This document shows positions 13,730 through 59,834 of a stretch of 64,000 bases of DNA, in pieces. The DNA lies in NCBI GenBank assembly GCA_034780895.1, contig JAUZTB010000064.1:86298991-86362990 (forward strand). Direction: 5' to 3'. The position numbers and the translations under genes are program-made. Below the pieces are notes generated by a model that was not told the DNA's origin, searched no databases, and saw nothing but the letters and a program-made list of their open reading frames with translations. Origin of the DNA: Rhynchobatus australiae. Its lineage: Eukaryota. Numbering within the stretch: position 1 is the stretch's first letter; each line of letters opens with the position of its first letter.

Positions 13730-13832
13730 AAGTGTGGCGACACTTGCGGGCTGCCCCCAGAACACTCTACACAAAAGACGTATTTCACTGTGTGTTTCAA
13801 TGTATATGTGACTAATAAAGATATCTTATCCT
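13730..13832 (+). mobile_element. V-SINE 3' part
   Basis: Closely matches the 3' part of the complete copy at 45039-45334, including the tail 'gtgactaataaagatatcttatc'. Confidence 0.85.
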
Positions 13833-18639: not shown

Positions 18640-18855
18640 ATAACAAAAATCAAAAACCTGAGAAGCTGGAAATCTGCAATAAAAACAGGAATTTCTGGAA
18701 AATCTCTGAATTTCAAGCGGCATCTAGGGAAAGAGAAACAGTTTACAGATTATACTATTTTTGTTCTGATGAAGGGTCCCAGACCTAAAACTAACATTTC
18801 CTCTTTCCACAGTTGCTGTCTGAGCTGATGAAGTTTCCCACATTTTCTGTTTCCA
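18640..18855. mobile_element. Inverted pair of Penelope-like pLTR segments; right arm carries a hammerhead core
   Basis: Left arm 'gctggaaatctgcaataaaaacaggaatttctggaaa...gcatctagggaaagagaaacag' is minus-oriented. Right arm reads tgtt-CTGATGA-a-gggtc(cca)gacct-AAAAC-t-aaca (18762-18796), then the pLTR body. Confidence 0.7.
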
Positions 18856-31454: not shown

Positions 31455-32830
31455 TGAAGCAAAAAACAAAAGCAGAAAAAGCTGGAAATACTCGGAAGGT
31501 TAAACCACATTTGTGGGAAGAGAAACAGAGTCATCCTTTCATATTGGAGACCCTTTGTCAGAACTGAAAAACAGACAAAAGGGAGAGGAAAAAGAGGAAG
31601 GCAATACAAAGAAGGGAAAAATAAAACAATCTGAGCTAATAGAGTCATACAGCACTGAAACTGGCCCTTCAGCCCAAGACTGCCTGCCATCAAAGCTAGT
31701 CCCATTTGGGGCGTTTGGCCCAGATTCCTCTAAACCTTTCTATCCATGTAGCTGTCCAAGTACCTTTTAAATGTCATTAATGTCCCCGCCTCCTCAACCA
31801 CTTCCTCTGGCAGCTCACTCCATAAACAGGCCACCTTCTGGGTGAAAAAGTTGCCTCTCAGATTCCTATTAAATCTCTCCCCTCTCACCTTAAATCTATG
31901 CCCTCTAGTTTTTAATTGCTTAACACTGGGAAAAAGACGGTGTACATTGACCCTGTCTATGCCCCTCATGATTTTATGCACCTCTAAAGGATCACCCCTC
32001 ATTCTCCTACACTCCCATGAAAGTAGTCCCAACCTGCTCAGCCTCTCTATTACTCAACCCCTCGAGTCCCCACAACTTCTTCATCAATCTCCTCTGCACT
32101 CTTTCTAACTTAATGGCCTCTTTCCTATAGCAGGATGACCAAAACTGAATATAATATTCCAAATGTGGCCTCACCAGCATCTTGGACAACTGCAATATCA
32201 CATCCCAACTTTTGTACTCGATGTCCTGACTGATGAAGGCCAGAATGAAAAATCCTTCTTCACCACCTTGTCGACCTGCGATGCCACTTTCAGGGAACCA
32301 TGTACTTGGAATCCTAGGTCACTCTGTTCTACCACACTCCCAGAGCCCTAGCGTCCACTGTGAAAGTCTTACCTTCATTTGTCTTCCCAAAATGCAACAC
32401 CTCGCATTTATCGGAATTAAACTTCATTTGCCATTCCTCGGCCCATTTACCAGCTGATCATAATCCCTCTTAATCCTGATAACCATCTTCACTGTCAACA
32501 ACACCAACTATTTTAGTGTCATCACCAAATTCACTAACCGTTATTAGCAATCGTTAGTAATTAGTAATATTACTGCTGCATGGCTGATACAGACCAAGAA
32601 CTGAGGTAACTCGGGTAACTGAGATTACCTGAAGTTGTAGTTTTCAATATCGAATGCAGCCAGAAGGGTGTAACGCGCCCAGAAAGAAGATGAGATGCTG
32701 TTTGTCGAGCTTGCATTGGGCCTCATTGTAACATTACAGGAGGCCACAGACCAATAGGTCAGAGTGGGAGTGAGATAAGGAATAAAAGTAGCAGGCAACA
32801 CAAAGCTGTGGGTCGTCCCTGCAGACTGAA
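31455..32830 (-). mobile_element. Penelope-like element 3' end (GIY-YIG C-terminus + pLTR), split by a CR1 insertion
   Basis: 32585-32830 (-) translates SVCRDDPQLCVACYFYSLSHSHSDLLVCGLL*CYNEAQCKLDKQHLIFFLGALHPSG..IENYNFR, matching the Penelope/Poseidon endonuclease C-terminus. 31455-31570 is the pLTR with a decayed core (cagtt-CTGACAA-agggtctccaatat-GAAAG). Confidence 0.8.
31638..32540 (-). mobile_element. CR1 LINE 3' ~900 bp
   Basis: ORFs 31730-32032 and 32007-32201: LVRPHLEY.IQFWS..YRK....LERVQRR and TRGHRFKVRGERFNRNLRGNFFTQ; tail 'atagagtcatacagcactgaaactggcccttcagccc'. Confidence 0.92.
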
Positions 32831-52699: not shown

Positions 52700-53410
52700 A
52701 AACCAGACAGGTCACCCAGCATCAATCTAGGCATTGAACTCAGACACGGCAAAGTTGCTCCCAGTTCAGTACATCTTGCAAAGCTCTTCACACAAGCACC
52801 TGGGGATTTGTGCCCAAATTGGGAGAGCTGTCACACGGACTTGACAAGCTACAGCCTGACATCGTCATACTCACAGAATCATGGCACAGCAAATGTCCCA
52901 GACCCTTTTTTTGTAGGACACACCCACCAAGGGGGTGGTGGGGGGGGGGGGTGCTGCACAATGGTATACAAATGTGAAGGATAAACCCTGGGAATGCTCA
53001 ACATTTACTCCAGACTCCATGTGTTCCCCCTGCTTCCAAACCCACGACTTCTACCTCCAAGAAGACAAGGGCAGCAGGTGCACAGGAGCACCAACACCTA
53101 CAATTTCCCCTCCAAATCAAAGTCCTGACTTGGAAATATGTCACTGGTCCTTTGTCTATGTCCGAGAACTCCCTACCCAACAGCACAGTGGGATGATGTT
53201 TACCAGAAGGACTGCAGCACCTCAAGATAAGATAAGATTTCTTTATTAGTCACACGTACATCGAAACACACAGTGAAATGCATCTTTGCATAGGGTGTTC
53301 TGGGGGCAGCCCGCAAGTGTCGCCACGCTTCCGGCACCACCATCACGTTCCCAGGGACAACTGTGGATGAGCAATAAATTCTGGCTTTGCCAGCAATGCA
53401 CAGACTCTGA
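52700..53410 (+). mobile_element. Internally deleted L2-like LINE (endonuclease start joined to 3' end), with nested V-SINE
   Basis: GFVPKLGELSHGLDKLQPDIVILTES (APE-like start, ~52803-52880) and GGGG motif, then from ~53010 sequence matching the 8560-8850 3' end. Confidence 0.6.
53224..53337 (-). mobile_element. 5'-truncated V-SINE
   Basis: Matches 45039-45145; carries an (aagat)n tail. Confidence 0.85.
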
Positions 53411-56705: not shown

Positions 56706-57729
56706 CCTTGTGGTATGAAAGGCCAGGGGTCAGATGACAGAGACAACACTACTGACCCCCATGGTCAGATGATAGCATTGCCTAGCAGGNNNNNNNNNNN
56801 NNNNNNNNNNNNNNNNNNNNNNNNNNNNNNNNNNNNNNNNNNNNNNNNNNNNNNNNNNNNNNNNNNNNNNNNNNNNNNNNNNNNNNNNNNNNNNNNNNNN
56901 NNNNNNNNNNNNNNNNNNNNNNNNNNNNNNNNNNNNNNNNNNNNNNNNNNNNNNNNNNNNNNNNNNNNNNNNNNNNNNNNNNNNNNNNNNNNNNNNNNNN
57001 NNNNNNNNNNNNNNNNNNNNNNNNNNNNNNNNNNNNNNNNNNNNNNNNNNNNNNNNNNNNNNNNNNNNNNNNNNNNNNNNNNNNNNNNNNNNNNNNNNNN
57101 NNNNNNNNNNNNNNNNNNNNNNNNNNNNNNNNNNNNNNNNNNNNNNNNNNNNNNNNNNNNNNNNNNNNNNNNNNNNNNNNNNNNNNNNNNNNNNNNNNNN
57201 NNNCAGTGCAGGAATATGTTGGTAACATAGCCAGCTCCATTGTAACTCTGCTATGGCATGATTTCCCCTGGATGGTGAGAATTAAAATCTCTCCTTGTCC
57301 ATCTGAGGGTAGAAAGTATAAAAGAAAAGCAAATATTGTTGAAATTTTAGAGATTCAACTTGGATGTAACATTGAAATGTTTAAAATGGAAGGATTAAAG
57401 TTATTTTTCACAACAGCAGAGTCAATGAGATTGGTTTTCTTTGTTTCAATGAAAATTACTTTGCACAAATTACAACTTAGGTAGTTTACTACTTGCACCC
57501 AGAGTTGATCTTGGTTTTGAATTTTTTCTTTCAGTAACAAAATTGATAAAGAAAAATTGCTGATGAAATCAATTTACTTCTTGACTGACCCTGCTCTTTA
57601 TAGAGTAAAAGGATTGACAGGGAAATGATCAGAATTGATGGATAATATATACAAATGCAAGTTATTTTATTTGAAATGCCCCTTCATTAACTCCTTCCCA
57701 TGTTATTATTGGGACCCTTTATTTCTAAG

Positions 57730-57849
57730 TCCAGATAAAGGGTTTCAACCTGAAATGTCGGCTCTCCATTTCCTTCCATATATGCTGCCTGATCCGTTGA
57801 GTTCCTCCAGTGCTTTTCGTGTTGCTCCAGGTTCCAGCATCTGCAGTCT
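57730..57849 (+). mobile_element. Penelope-like pLTR mini-insertion with a decayed hammerhead and perfect 13-bp TSD
   Basis: agtc-CAGATAA-agggtttcaacct-GAAAT-GTC-ggct (57728-57763), then the pLTR body. ctttatttctaag occurs at both 57717-57729 and 57850-57862. Confidence 0.85.
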
Positions 57850-59834
57850 CTTTATTTCTAAGCCCATTTTATAGGTGTTTTTCTAATTGAACTTTGTTCA
57901 TTGCTCACCACAAAATTTCCTCTATTTTGGAAGGAACAATTGTAGTTTGGATAATGACTTGCCAATATTTCTATTGTTACAGACCTAGGTTACTATTGGT
58001 GAATANNNNNNNNNNNNNNNNNNNNNNNNNNNNNNNNNNNNNNNNNNNNNNNNNNNNNNNNNNNNNNNNNNNNNNNNNNNNNNNNNNNNNNNNNNNNNNN
58101 NNNNNACCTTATGGCTTGCTGAACTGAACTTTAAGAACCATTCCTGGACGTGGAGTTTGGGAATTTGTCACACACACACCTGTTTATAAACATAATTTTG
58201 ATTTCATGCAATACAATACTTAAATTCCCTTCTTTCCAAATGTTATTCCCTAAATAGGTCTTTGTATTTTTTTAAGCTGGACATTTTGCCTCTCACAGAT
58301 GGGAGATACTTAGTCTTGAGCTTCAGGTATCACAATAGTGAGGGCAGAGTTGCTGTCAGGTATCTTTTCTCTGCCCACATCTTCCATGAGCTCACAATCC
58401 TTCAGCCTGTCTATCTGTGACACTGTTCTTACAATGTTAAGTTAACTGACAGTTGACATGCCTCGTAATATTTATGTTTATGTAGCATGAACATTTTACA
58501 AATTCTTATGCTTCCTTTTTCAATTTATTTTAAACAAGTATCAATTGTTTTAATATGCTTCATATGTAGTGGGAGAAATGTGTTCTATGAAAACTGGAAA
58601 ACTATATCAATTCCATTCATAAAGTTAACTTGGAAGGGAAAGAACACAGCCTTACAAATTATGTTGTTACTTATCACAAAGTGCTGCTTCTCACCATATT
58701 ACATAATACTAAATCGTTCATATCATTGCAGTAATTAGAAGCTTGCCGACCTGCAGCCANNNNNNNNNNNNNNNNNNNNNNNNNNNNNNNNNNNNNNNNN
58801 NNNNNNNNNNNNNNNNNNNNNNNNNNNNNNNNNNNNNNNNNNNNNNNNNNNNNNNNNNNNNNNNNNNNNNNNNNNNNNNNNNNNNNNNNNNNNNNNNNNN
58901 NNNNNNNNNNNNNNNNNNNNNNNNNNNNNNNNNNNNNNNNNNNNNNNNNNNNNNNNNNNNNNNNNNNNNNNNNNNNNNNNNNNNNNNNNNNNNNNNNNNN
59001 NNNNNNNNNNNNNNNNNNNNNNNNNNNNNNNNNNNNNNNNNNNNNNNNNNNNNNNNNNNNNNNNNNNNNNNNNNNNNNNNNNNNNNNNNNNNNNNNNNNN
59101 NNNNNNNNNNNNNNNNNNNNNNNNNNNNNNNNNNNNNNNNNNNNNNNNNNNNNNNNNNNNNNNNNNNNNNNNNNNNNNNNNNNNNNNNNNNNNNNNNNNN
59201 NNNNNNNNNNNNNNNNNNNNNNNNNNNNNNNNNNNNNNNNNNNNNNNNNNNNNNNNNNNNNNNNNNNNNNNNNNNNNNNNNNNNNNNNNNNNNNNNNNNN
59301 NNNNNNNNNNNNNNNNNNNNNNNNNNNNNNNNNNNNNNNNNNNNNNNNNNNNNNNNNNNNNNNNNNNNNNNNNNNNNNNNNNNNNNNNNNNNNNNNNNNN
59401 NNNNNNNNNNNNNNNNNNNNNNNNNNNNNNNNNNNNNNNNNNNNNNNNNNNNNNNNNNNNNNNNNNNNNNNNNNNNNNNNNNNNNNNNNNNNNNNNNNNN
59501 NNNNNNNNNNNNNNNNNNNNNNNNNNNNNNNNNNNNNNNNNNNNNNNTTATTACACAGAGGTAATCATTCAGAGAGAAATAATTCTTTAAGTGAGCTCCT
59601 CTTTCTAACATTCCCACTCCCAACATTGTGTCATCCTGATAAATAATAATATAATATTGTGGACCTGAAATCTACTTAGTCTGAAATCTATTAATATAGG
59701 GTGTGCATTACAGTAAATGATTCATAAAGTTCACATGTTAGATATCTTTTTATAAAGCTGTGCCATTTTATTCAAACTGCTATAAAGTGCAAGAGGGTAG
59801 CTGACAAATGTCTGTCCCATCAATGTGCAGATGC

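What the first reader, a model, noticed from the sequence alone, without database searches (positions are those of the whole stretch)
57717..57862. Hammerhead-bearing mini-retroelements (90-120 bp) that insert as discrete units with 13-14 bp TSDs
Seen: three short insertions of the same repeat family, at 4832-4935, 36998-37084 and 57730-57849. Each is bracketed by a direct repeat: 10/13, 12/14 and a perfect 13/13 ctttatttctaag. Each begins at or inside a stemI-CUGAUGA-stemII-GAAAC-NUH-stemI layout. Established: Penelope-like elements carry minimal type-I hammerhead ribozymes in their pLTRs, with a very short palindromic stem III thought to need dimerisation. Inference: these are either a SINE/retrozyme-like non-autonomous family mobilised by Penelope machinery, or heavily 5'-truncated Penelope insertions whose truncation clusters at the ribozyme. 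The copies here have core mutations and are probably inactive; the family consensus may be active.
Basis: partly seen in the sequence, partly recalled or inferred. Interest (0 to 1): 0.7.

Follow-up and report, generated by a model that had tools for sequence, protein, structure and literature searches.

The report
Penelope retrotransposon end-stumps carrying hammerheads
These short insertions are real pasted copies of the end piece of a very abundant, known type of jumping gene in what is likely a ray genome; many begin just in front of a tiny self-cutting-RNA motif rather than at its cut site, which likely marks where the template RNA starts, and about half of the young copies carry an inherited change in that motif.

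Summary
The three insertions and their flanking duplications are real. They are not a separate SINE or retrozyme family. They are the ~100-135-nt terminal module (minimal hammerhead, ~65 nt, optional ~35-nt tail) of an RT + GIY-YIG-type Penelope-like element (PLE), likely Neptune clade, at ~170 copies/Mb.

In a random genome sample, 5' ends cluster just upstream of the hammerhead core (32 of 68 arms within ±13 nt). They do not cluster at the cleavage site (6 of 125 versus 38 of 125). Short and long copies are equally diverged within each subfamily. TSDs are real but detectable in a minority (6 of 30, 8 of 23, 20 of 54) and run 8-19 bp. About a third of events are head-to-head units, with the tail on one arm only (36 of 36).

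Two of the three window copies belong to a subfamily with an inherited U4A core change, as abundant as the canonical form (1,325 versus 1,314 exact matches). Likely mechanism (inferred): reverse transcription starts at the tail sites and runs to the RNA 5' end, without ribozyme cleavage. The scan found the same pattern before in this and other shark/ray genomes. Known kind, modest mechanistic interest.

The parts
57717..57729 (+). Left copy of the 13-bp target-site duplication; its last 2 nt (57728-57729) also match element positions +1/+2
57730..57849 (+). PLE terminal module, U4A subfamily (A2), with tail; +1 = 57728
57728..57763 (+). Decayed minimal type I hammerhead: stem I 57728-31/57760-63, core 57732-38 (U4A inherited, G8A private), stem II 57740-51, GAAA 57752-55, would-be cut after 57759
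   Evidence: sequence against the family alignment
57825..57849 (+). Optional 3' tail of the pLTR, slightly short of the usual end; in L297 the tail runs on into the ORF 5' region
   Evidence: (two 3'-end peaks)
57850..57862 (+). Right copy of the 13-bp target-site duplication (first 3 nt also match the tail)
4819..4833 (+). Left copy of a 15-bp TSD (12/15) inside a LINE-like host repeat
4834..4935 (+). PLE terminal module, U4A core, no tail; +1 = 4838; stem III palindrome lost
4936..4950 (+). Right copy of the 15-bp TSD; motif single in 11 of 13 paralogous host copies
36984..36997 (+). Left copy of a 14-bp TSD (12/14)
36998..37084 (+). Module of the older subfamily B, starting inside stem II (no CUGANGA), no tail
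37085..37098 (+). Right copy of the 14-bp TSD
18641..18853 (.).
45996..46099 (.). Second head-to-head unit, cut by an assembly gap
6176..6231 (-). Further decayed module copy
31470..31551 (-). Further decayed module copy (subfamily B)
41993..42039 (+). Further decayed module copy next to a gap
45441..45540 (-). Further decayed module copy with some upstream pLTR (subfamily B)

Best explanation
The insertions are TSD-flanked copies of the terminal hammerhead-bearing pLTR module of an abundant Penelope-like element, likely made again and again from the element's own RNA when its RT primes at one of two internal tail sites and likely runs only as far as the RNA's 5' end, just upstream of the uncut ribozyme. 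Shown here: the module lies about 330 nt downstream of an RT / Cys-linker / GIY-YIG-type ORF and also directly upstream of an ORF start; 3' ends fall in two peaks (about +100 and +130-135); 5' ends pile up at about +1 to +5; head-to-head units pair one tailed with one untailed arm; and a U4A subfamily amplified as much as the canonical one. Taken from the literature: internal RT initiation at two sites flanking the tail, cutting and extension of both target strands, and cleavage not needed for insertion in vitro (PMC11167929). Inferred: that +1 is a transcription start, that head-to-head units come from priming on both target strands with each start site used once, and that U4A impairs cleavage.
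For: Parentage: module in the same orientation 264-497 nt after the ORF end in 16 of 30 ORF-end loci, the rest mostly gapped or cut short. L125 carries RT motifs, a Cys linker, GxIYCxxC...IxET, UTR and module in one piece. Its 4 homologues are from rays, 3 with PF26215. Random-sample coverage falls 70 > 24 > 9-10 > 1 from module to RT. The tail runs into an ATG 35 nt on and a 172-aa frame in L297, 1 of 16 regions fetched upstream of RT-bearing copies; 3 exact genome matches to tail plus first body motif, control 0. 5' ends: 32 of 68 random arms in -13..+13 (1.23/nt) versus 11 in -190..-14 (0.06/nt; p 4e-20) and 22 in +14..+62 (0.45/nt; p 2e-4); 21 of 53 in a second set found with 3'-only queries. 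Cleavage site (+30..+36) 6 of 125 versus 38 of 125 at -3..+5. Sharp edge: in 47 short copies the match to the element is 9-38% at -14..-1 and 66-85% at +2..+5, against 58-88% at -14..-1 in 33 long copies. +1 lies in CCAGTCC, which fits the initiator pattern YYANWYY (pattern recalled). Tail on exactly one arm in 36 of 36 inverted units, 19 of 19 in the random set. No separate short lineage: mean distances short-short / long-long / short-long are 0.234 / 0.239 / 0.235 and 0.192 / 0.195 / 0.194. U4A tracks an independent UTR type (17 of 20 versus 0 of 19, p 9e-8); exact 23-mers 1,325 (A), 1,314 (U), 181 (C+G).
Against: No direct evidence for a transcription start at +1: three RNA-seq runs of a related species showed no place where many molecules begin or end (ordinary libraries swamped by embedded copies, so a weak test). 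Those reads show a 3-4-fold one-strand excess over the UTR upstream of +1, sense if the library is of the usual stranded type, so RNAs spanning +1 exist. No excess of G at -1 as a cap would leave (10 of 47). In D. virilis Penelope the start is 46 nt before a 75-nt intron (PMC2377424, passages) whose end maps to helix I (PMC4209133), and +1/+2 here is also an AG after a pyrimidine tract, so a splice-related edge is possible. The assembly is about 19% N in my sample, which undercounts long copies; only the comparison with +14..+62 is free of that bias. Pfam support for the ORF is weak: RVT_1 E 0.0097, below cut-off, in 1 of 7 fragments, and no GIY-YIG hit. U4A activity is untested. The tail-to-ORF junction was read in one locus only.
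Confidence: 0.6

Rival explanations
1. Same PLE origin, but the 5' edge is set by something other than the transcription start: a splice acceptor at +2 (spliced RNA with a tiny or poorly copied first exon), or template switching and microhomology joining favoured at stem I.
For: The edge sits at an AG after a pyrimidine tract. In D. virilis the intron end maps to the 5' end of helix I (PMC4209133). The match rises from 47% at +1 to 66-68% at +2/+3.
Against: No shared upstream exon: the 60 nt before 22 solo short copies match the UTR no better than control flanks (max 22 versus control max 26). A pattern joining the ORF-end GT site to the ribozyme gave 0 genome matches (one candidate donor only). 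A is retained at +1 in 22 of 47, above background. No GT..AG joint among the 15 joints shown (177 not shown).
Confidence: 0.27
2. An independent non-autonomous SINE-like or retrozyme family: a short master RNA that is itself transcribed and re-amplified by PLE proteins.
For: Discrete size (89-139 nt in 22 solo copies), TSDs and very high copy number. Retrozyme monomers related to pLTRs are reported in vertebrates (bioRxiv 10.64898/2026.07.22.740005). One module tandem (L045) and a few tandem pairs exist.
Against: No diagnostic column separates short from long copies (lowest p 0.02 of 92 columns), distances are equal, and short copies occur in both subfamilies, 24 and 13. Head-to-head pairs outnumber tandem pairs 25 to 5. 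No tRNA gene search was run.
Confidence: 0.08
3. The short copies are reverse transcripts of RNA cut by the hammerhead.
For: The canonical subfamily has a complete minimal core; 14 of 84 spanning copies still match it. Stem I pair 1 covaries between families A and B (C-G 17 of 34 versus U-A 10 of 18).
Against: A cleavage product would start at +33 and lack the core; only 6 of 125 ends lie there. The U4A subfamily gives short copies too. Cleavage was dispensable in vitro for the anole element (PMC11167929).
Confidence: 0.05

Closest known systems
EN+ Penelope-like elements, Neptune clade (PMC8557442: passages and sections 3, 15; PMC3846280: passages)
   Same: RT followed by a Cys linker and GIY-YIG-type domain; heavy 5' truncation; inverted 5'-truncated copy; 30-40-bp tail on one end; variable TSDs (8-10 bp in the rotifer examples); solo pLTRs
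   Different: Here most insertions are reduced to the last 100-135 nt, with a sharp 5' edge at the ribozyme. I found no such end histogram in my searches. Clade assigned by motif, not by a tree.
Minimal hammerheads of metazoan PLE pLTRs (PMC4209133: parts 1-2 of 4)
   Same: 4-5-bp stem I, extra nucleotide after A9, G10.1-C11.1, palindromic 15.2-16.2 with no loop 3; mostly single dispersed motifs and close pairs on opposite strands, read there as truncated PLEs
   Different: Stem II is 4-5 bp rather than 7-8 bp as in Schistosoma; a subfamily-wide U4A variant, not found in my search for that term.
Poseidon_Ac (PAc) of the green anole (PMC11167929: parts 1-2 of 4)
   Same: Ribozyme near the ORF start; two RT start sites bounding the tail; both target strands cut and extended; cleavage not needed for insertion
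   Different: PAc's ORF starts inside stem II; here the ATG read in L297 lies 35 nt past the tail. PAc is Poseidon clade, this is likely Neptune. My evidence is genomic, not biochemical.
Animal non-LTR retrozymes (PMC7229834: passages; bioRxiv 10.64898/2026.07.22.740005: parts 1-3 of 5)
   Same: Type I hammerhead, no coding capacity, pLTR ancestry, dispersed monomers
   Different: Retrozymes are head-to-tail arrays with a ribozyme in each unit and make circular RNA; here tandems are rare, head-to-head units common, and the ends are not at the cut site.

Membership tests
EN+ PLE (Neptune) | Parent ORF with RT and C-terminal GIY-YIG bearing two Cys between GIY and YIG | tested here: met
   Motifs read in L125 and in ray homologues; Pfam RVT_1 only weak and no GIY-YIG profile hit
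EN+ PLE (Neptune) | Cys-rich linker between RT and EN | tested here: met
   CxxCxxC before the EN in L125 and P0002; definition in PMC8557442 section 3
EN+ PLE (Neptune) | RT phylogeny inside the Neptune clade | not tested
   No reference RT set was fetched
EN+ PLE (Neptune) | pLTR module at both the 3' end and ahead of the ORF | tested here: met
   3' side 16 of 30; 5' side tail-to-ORF junction in 1 of 16 regions plus 3 pattern matches
EN+ PLE (Neptune) | Inverted 5'-truncated copy and optional 30-40-bp tail on one end | tested here: met
   21 of 67 random family-A events inverted; tail on one arm in 36 of 36 units
EN+ PLE (Neptune) | Variable-length TSD | tested here: met
   8-19 bp, above shuffled controls, in a minority of copies
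Minimal type I hammerhead | CUGANGA / GAAA / UH core with stems I and II and palindromic stem III | tested here: met
   Met by the majority form of subfamily A1 and by 14 of 84 copies; not met by subfamily A2 (U4A) or by any of the three window copies
Minimal type I hammerhead | Covarying stems | tested here: inconclusive
   Within family A departures are one-sided and mostly CpG-type; one clear two-sided change between families A and B, a second partial
Minimal type I hammerhead | Self-cleavage as a dimer or with protein | not testable with these tools
   Needs an in vitro assay
Non-LTR retrozyme | Head-to-tail arrays with a complete ribozyme in each unit | tested here: not met
   5 same-strand pairs among 196 hits versus 25 head-to-head; window copies are single
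Non-LTR retrozyme | Abundant circular or unit-length RNA | tested here: inconclusive
   One search shows a few go-back joints that genomic tandems explain equally well; no small-RNA data
SINE-like non-autonomous family | Own master lineage with diagnostic positions | tested here: not met
   Short and long copies indistinguishable in both subfamilies, 37 short and 42 long

The most novel reading that the evidence does not exclude
These hundreds of thousands of stumps are strong-stop-like cDNAs running from the two internal RT start sites to the 5' end of the uncut PLE mRNA. They would map the element's transcription start from DNA alone, show in vivo that the two start sites are used one per target strand (36 of 36 inverted units), and show that a lineage with a crippled ribozyme core (U4A) spread as well as the canonical one, so cleavage is dispensable for PLE amplification.
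Probability: 0.4. Interest if true: 0.52.

Novelty: new member of a known kind. Interest (0 to 1): 0.3.

Why it matters
How Penelope-like elements integrate, and what their hammerhead is for, are stated open questions (PMC8557442 section 15). This family gives a large natural record. It ties the two in vitro RT start sites to a strict one-tail-per-unit rule. It puts the 5' edge before the ribozyme rather than at its cut site. It offers a natural core variant (U4A) that amplified as much as the canonical form. Each point gives a simple assay. The finding itself, truncated PLE ends with minimal hammerheads and TSDs, is already described.

Tried and rejected
Rfam scan of the window: no hammerhead, 4 chance hits. 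PDB sequence search with the RT fragment: 2 irrelevant weak hits. Pfam: 5 of 7 ORF fragments had no hit. Single-sequence folding was not significant. Sequencing-run search: no RNA holder listed; only raw-read runs of a related species were offered. Laying them gave no start or end pile-ups; a narrower look at splice joints was not obtained, so splicing into the ribozyme edge remains untested in RNA. Spliced-junction pattern: 0 matches. Shared first exon: none. Cap-derived G: none. The first 30 loci were not used for 5'-end counts because the query included the ribozyme. Rows dropped: of 201 profile hits, 2 at region edges were dropped; 103 of 199 passed identity >=0.77 and score >=70; 2 window copies and 1 duplicate were removed, leaving 78 family-A and 22 other arms; 6 gap-adjacent and 4 other-UTR arms were left out of the 68. 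One of 7 random TSD calls was an internal tandem and was not counted. Some inverted units are counted twice among the 54 arms. 7 inverted arms with short inner arms were set aside before the 36. The 5' ends of the older family B were not quantified. The paper on dimer cleavage of PLE hammerheads (Lunse et al. 2017, recalled) is not held. No paper with the term U4A was found; PMC3088659 passages mention only U4C as much reduced in vitro yet sufficient in vivo for a viroid. No supplements were read; those of the bioRxiv preprint may list chondrichthyan families overlapping this one.

Full report
OBSERVATION. The focal copy is 57730-57849, between perfect 13-bp repeats; 2 nt at its 5' junction and 3 nt at its 3' junction fit both element and target. 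The repeat around the first copy extends to 15 nt (12/15). It lies in a LINE-like host repeat whose paralogues carry that motif once in 11 of 13 copies, which shows duplication on insertion. The window holds about 10 copies, two of them head-to-head pairs. Rfam sees no hammerhead and folding z-scores are unremarkable, so the ribozyme layout comes from the family alignment. None of the three copies has an intact core.

WHAT IT IS PART OF. Long copies extend upstream through a C/T-rich region into an ORF end. That peptide has 25,962 first-look candidates in the genome. In 16 of 30 such loci the module follows 264-497 nt downstream on the same strand; the rest are mostly gapped or cut short. L125 holds RT motifs, a CxxCxxC linker, a GIY-YIG-type segment with two Cys, the UTR and the module in one piece. 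Pfam support is weak (RVT_1 E 0.0097, below cut-off), but the four homologues found are from rays and show the same motifs. By the definitions in PMC8557442 (section 3) this is an endonuclease-bearing PLE, likely Neptune; no tree was built. In L297, 1 of 16 regions fetched upstream of RT-bearing copies, the tail runs straight into the body, with an ATG 35 nt on and a 172-aa frame; a pattern for that junction has 3 genome matches against 0 controls. So the module is the pLTR end, present at the 3' end of insertions and ahead of the ORF.

ABUNDANCE AND ANATOMY. In 140 evenly spaced 10-kb stretches (1,139,385 non-N bases) a profile of the part downstream of the cut site found 196 copies, against 0 in reversed sequence. 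That extrapolates to roughly 300,000 copies. Coverage falls from 70 at the module to about 10 at the ORF end and 1 at the RT. Of 67 young-family events, 23 are solo, 21 inverted, 10 long, 7 flagged as having another shared upstream sequence and 6 gap-bound. 3' ends form two peaks, near +100 and +130-135, the optional tail of PLEs. With +1 set at the A of CCAGTCC, 4 nt before C3, 32 of 68 random arms start within -13..+13 (1.23 per nt), against 0.06 per nt upstream and 0.45 per nt downstream. A second set found with 3'-only queries gives 21 of 53. The cleavage product would start at +33: 6 of 125 ends lie at +30..+36 and 38 at -3..+5. The edge is sharp, with background matching at -14..-1 in 47 short copies. 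Assembly gaps undercount long copies, so the downstream comparison is the safer one.

TSDs AND INVERSIONS. Repeats scoring 8 or more were found in 6 of 30 random non-inverted copies (a seventh was an internal tandem), 8 of 23 anchored copies and 20 of 54 inverted arms, some units counted twice. Controls gave 0 of 300, 0 of 300 and 5 of 295; lengths are 8-19 bp. So TSDs are a real feature, but not universal in these aged copies and not fixed at 13-14 bp. All 36 assessable inverted units pair a tailed with an untailed arm, 19 of 19 in the random set. With 24 of 33 non-inverted copies tailed, independent arms would give that pairing about 40% of the time (hand estimate). One-sided tails are known qualitatively (PMC8557442).

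RIBOZYME. The majority form of subfamily A1 has a 5-bp stem I, CUGAUGA, an extra A, a 4-5-bp stem II, GAAA, a loopless ACGU stem III and C17, matching the minimal hammerhead of PMC4209133. Only 14 of 84 spanning copies keep the core, and departures are mostly one-sided CpG-type changes. One stem I pair covaries between the young and the old family. Position 4 is A in 33 of 84 copies and tracks an independent UTR type (17 of 20 versus 0 of 19). Exact 23-mers number 1,325 with A, 1,314 with U and 181 with C or G. U4A was therefore in the source element of a subfamily that amplified as much as the canonical one; the 4834 and 57730 copies carry it. Whether U4A abolishes cleavage is untested; the passage I found concerns U4C.

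MECHANISM. For the anole PLE, RT starts at two internal sites bounding the tail, both target strands are cut and extended, and ribozyme mutants insert normally (PMC11167929). Applied here (inference): priming at the tail sites near the 5' end of the mRNA and run-off at the RNA's 5' end gives 100-135-nt stumps that begin before the uncut ribozyme. Priming on both strands, one site each, gives the head-to-head units. Priming at the downstream pLTR gives ordinary truncated long copies. That +1 is the transcription start is the weakest step. It fits a recalled initiator pattern, but RNA reads of a related species showed no start pile-up and did cover the upstream UTR, and no cap-derived G is seen. 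The site is also acceptor-like, as in D. virilis, but no shared first exon and no spliced junction for the one donor tried were found.

NOT A SEPARATE FAMILY. Short and long copies are equally distant within each subfamily and no column separates them. Head-to-head pairs outnumber tandem pairs 25 to 5. This fails the retrozyme criterion and gives no sign of a SINE master.

VERDICT. A new member of a known kind: dispersed single minimal hammerheads and opposite-strand pairs were already read as truncated PLEs. My searches found no report of the 5'-end peak or of a U4A lineage, but most subscription papers are not searched. My reading was noted before the look-up. Earlier AI notes of this scan report the same edge and another core-variant lineage in shark/ray genomes; they are not counted as support. 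Interest 0.30.

Noticed in passing
   Followed up: partly
window 4650-5500: The 4834 copy sits inside a decayed LINE-like repeat (CR1-type ORF1 look, label recalled); paralogues served as empty sites
   Followed up: partly
L134:4796-4801 and the ORF end of most long copies: The ORF stop overlaps a G/GTAAC donor-like motif, and the UTR ends in a pyrimidine tract plus CAG at the ribozyme edge, so the whole UTR looks like a possible intron; no genomic spliced form was found
   Followed up: partly
L134:4896-5015: RNA reads of a related species show a 3-4-fold one-strand excess over the UTR but not over the ORF end in two of three runs; could be a pLTR promoter upstream of +1 or a few host transcripts
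   Followed up: no
L045 (about 253-342) and G000:C2:28583727-28583903: Rare head-to-tail module tandems (about 90-150-nt period), possible seeds of retrozyme-like arrays
   Followed up: no
L185:9549, L088:8640, L201:5804: A third young subfamily with a different UTR; two of these three copies show an intact CUGAAGA core
   Followed up: partly
window 47321-47386: A 30-bp inverted repeat with a 6-nt spacer (93% complementary), unrelated to this family
   Followed up: no
window 41819-41892, 45039-45160, 53231-53353, 13730-13830: Another dispersed repeat family, with two copies identical over 74 nt, next to assembly gaps
   Followed up: no
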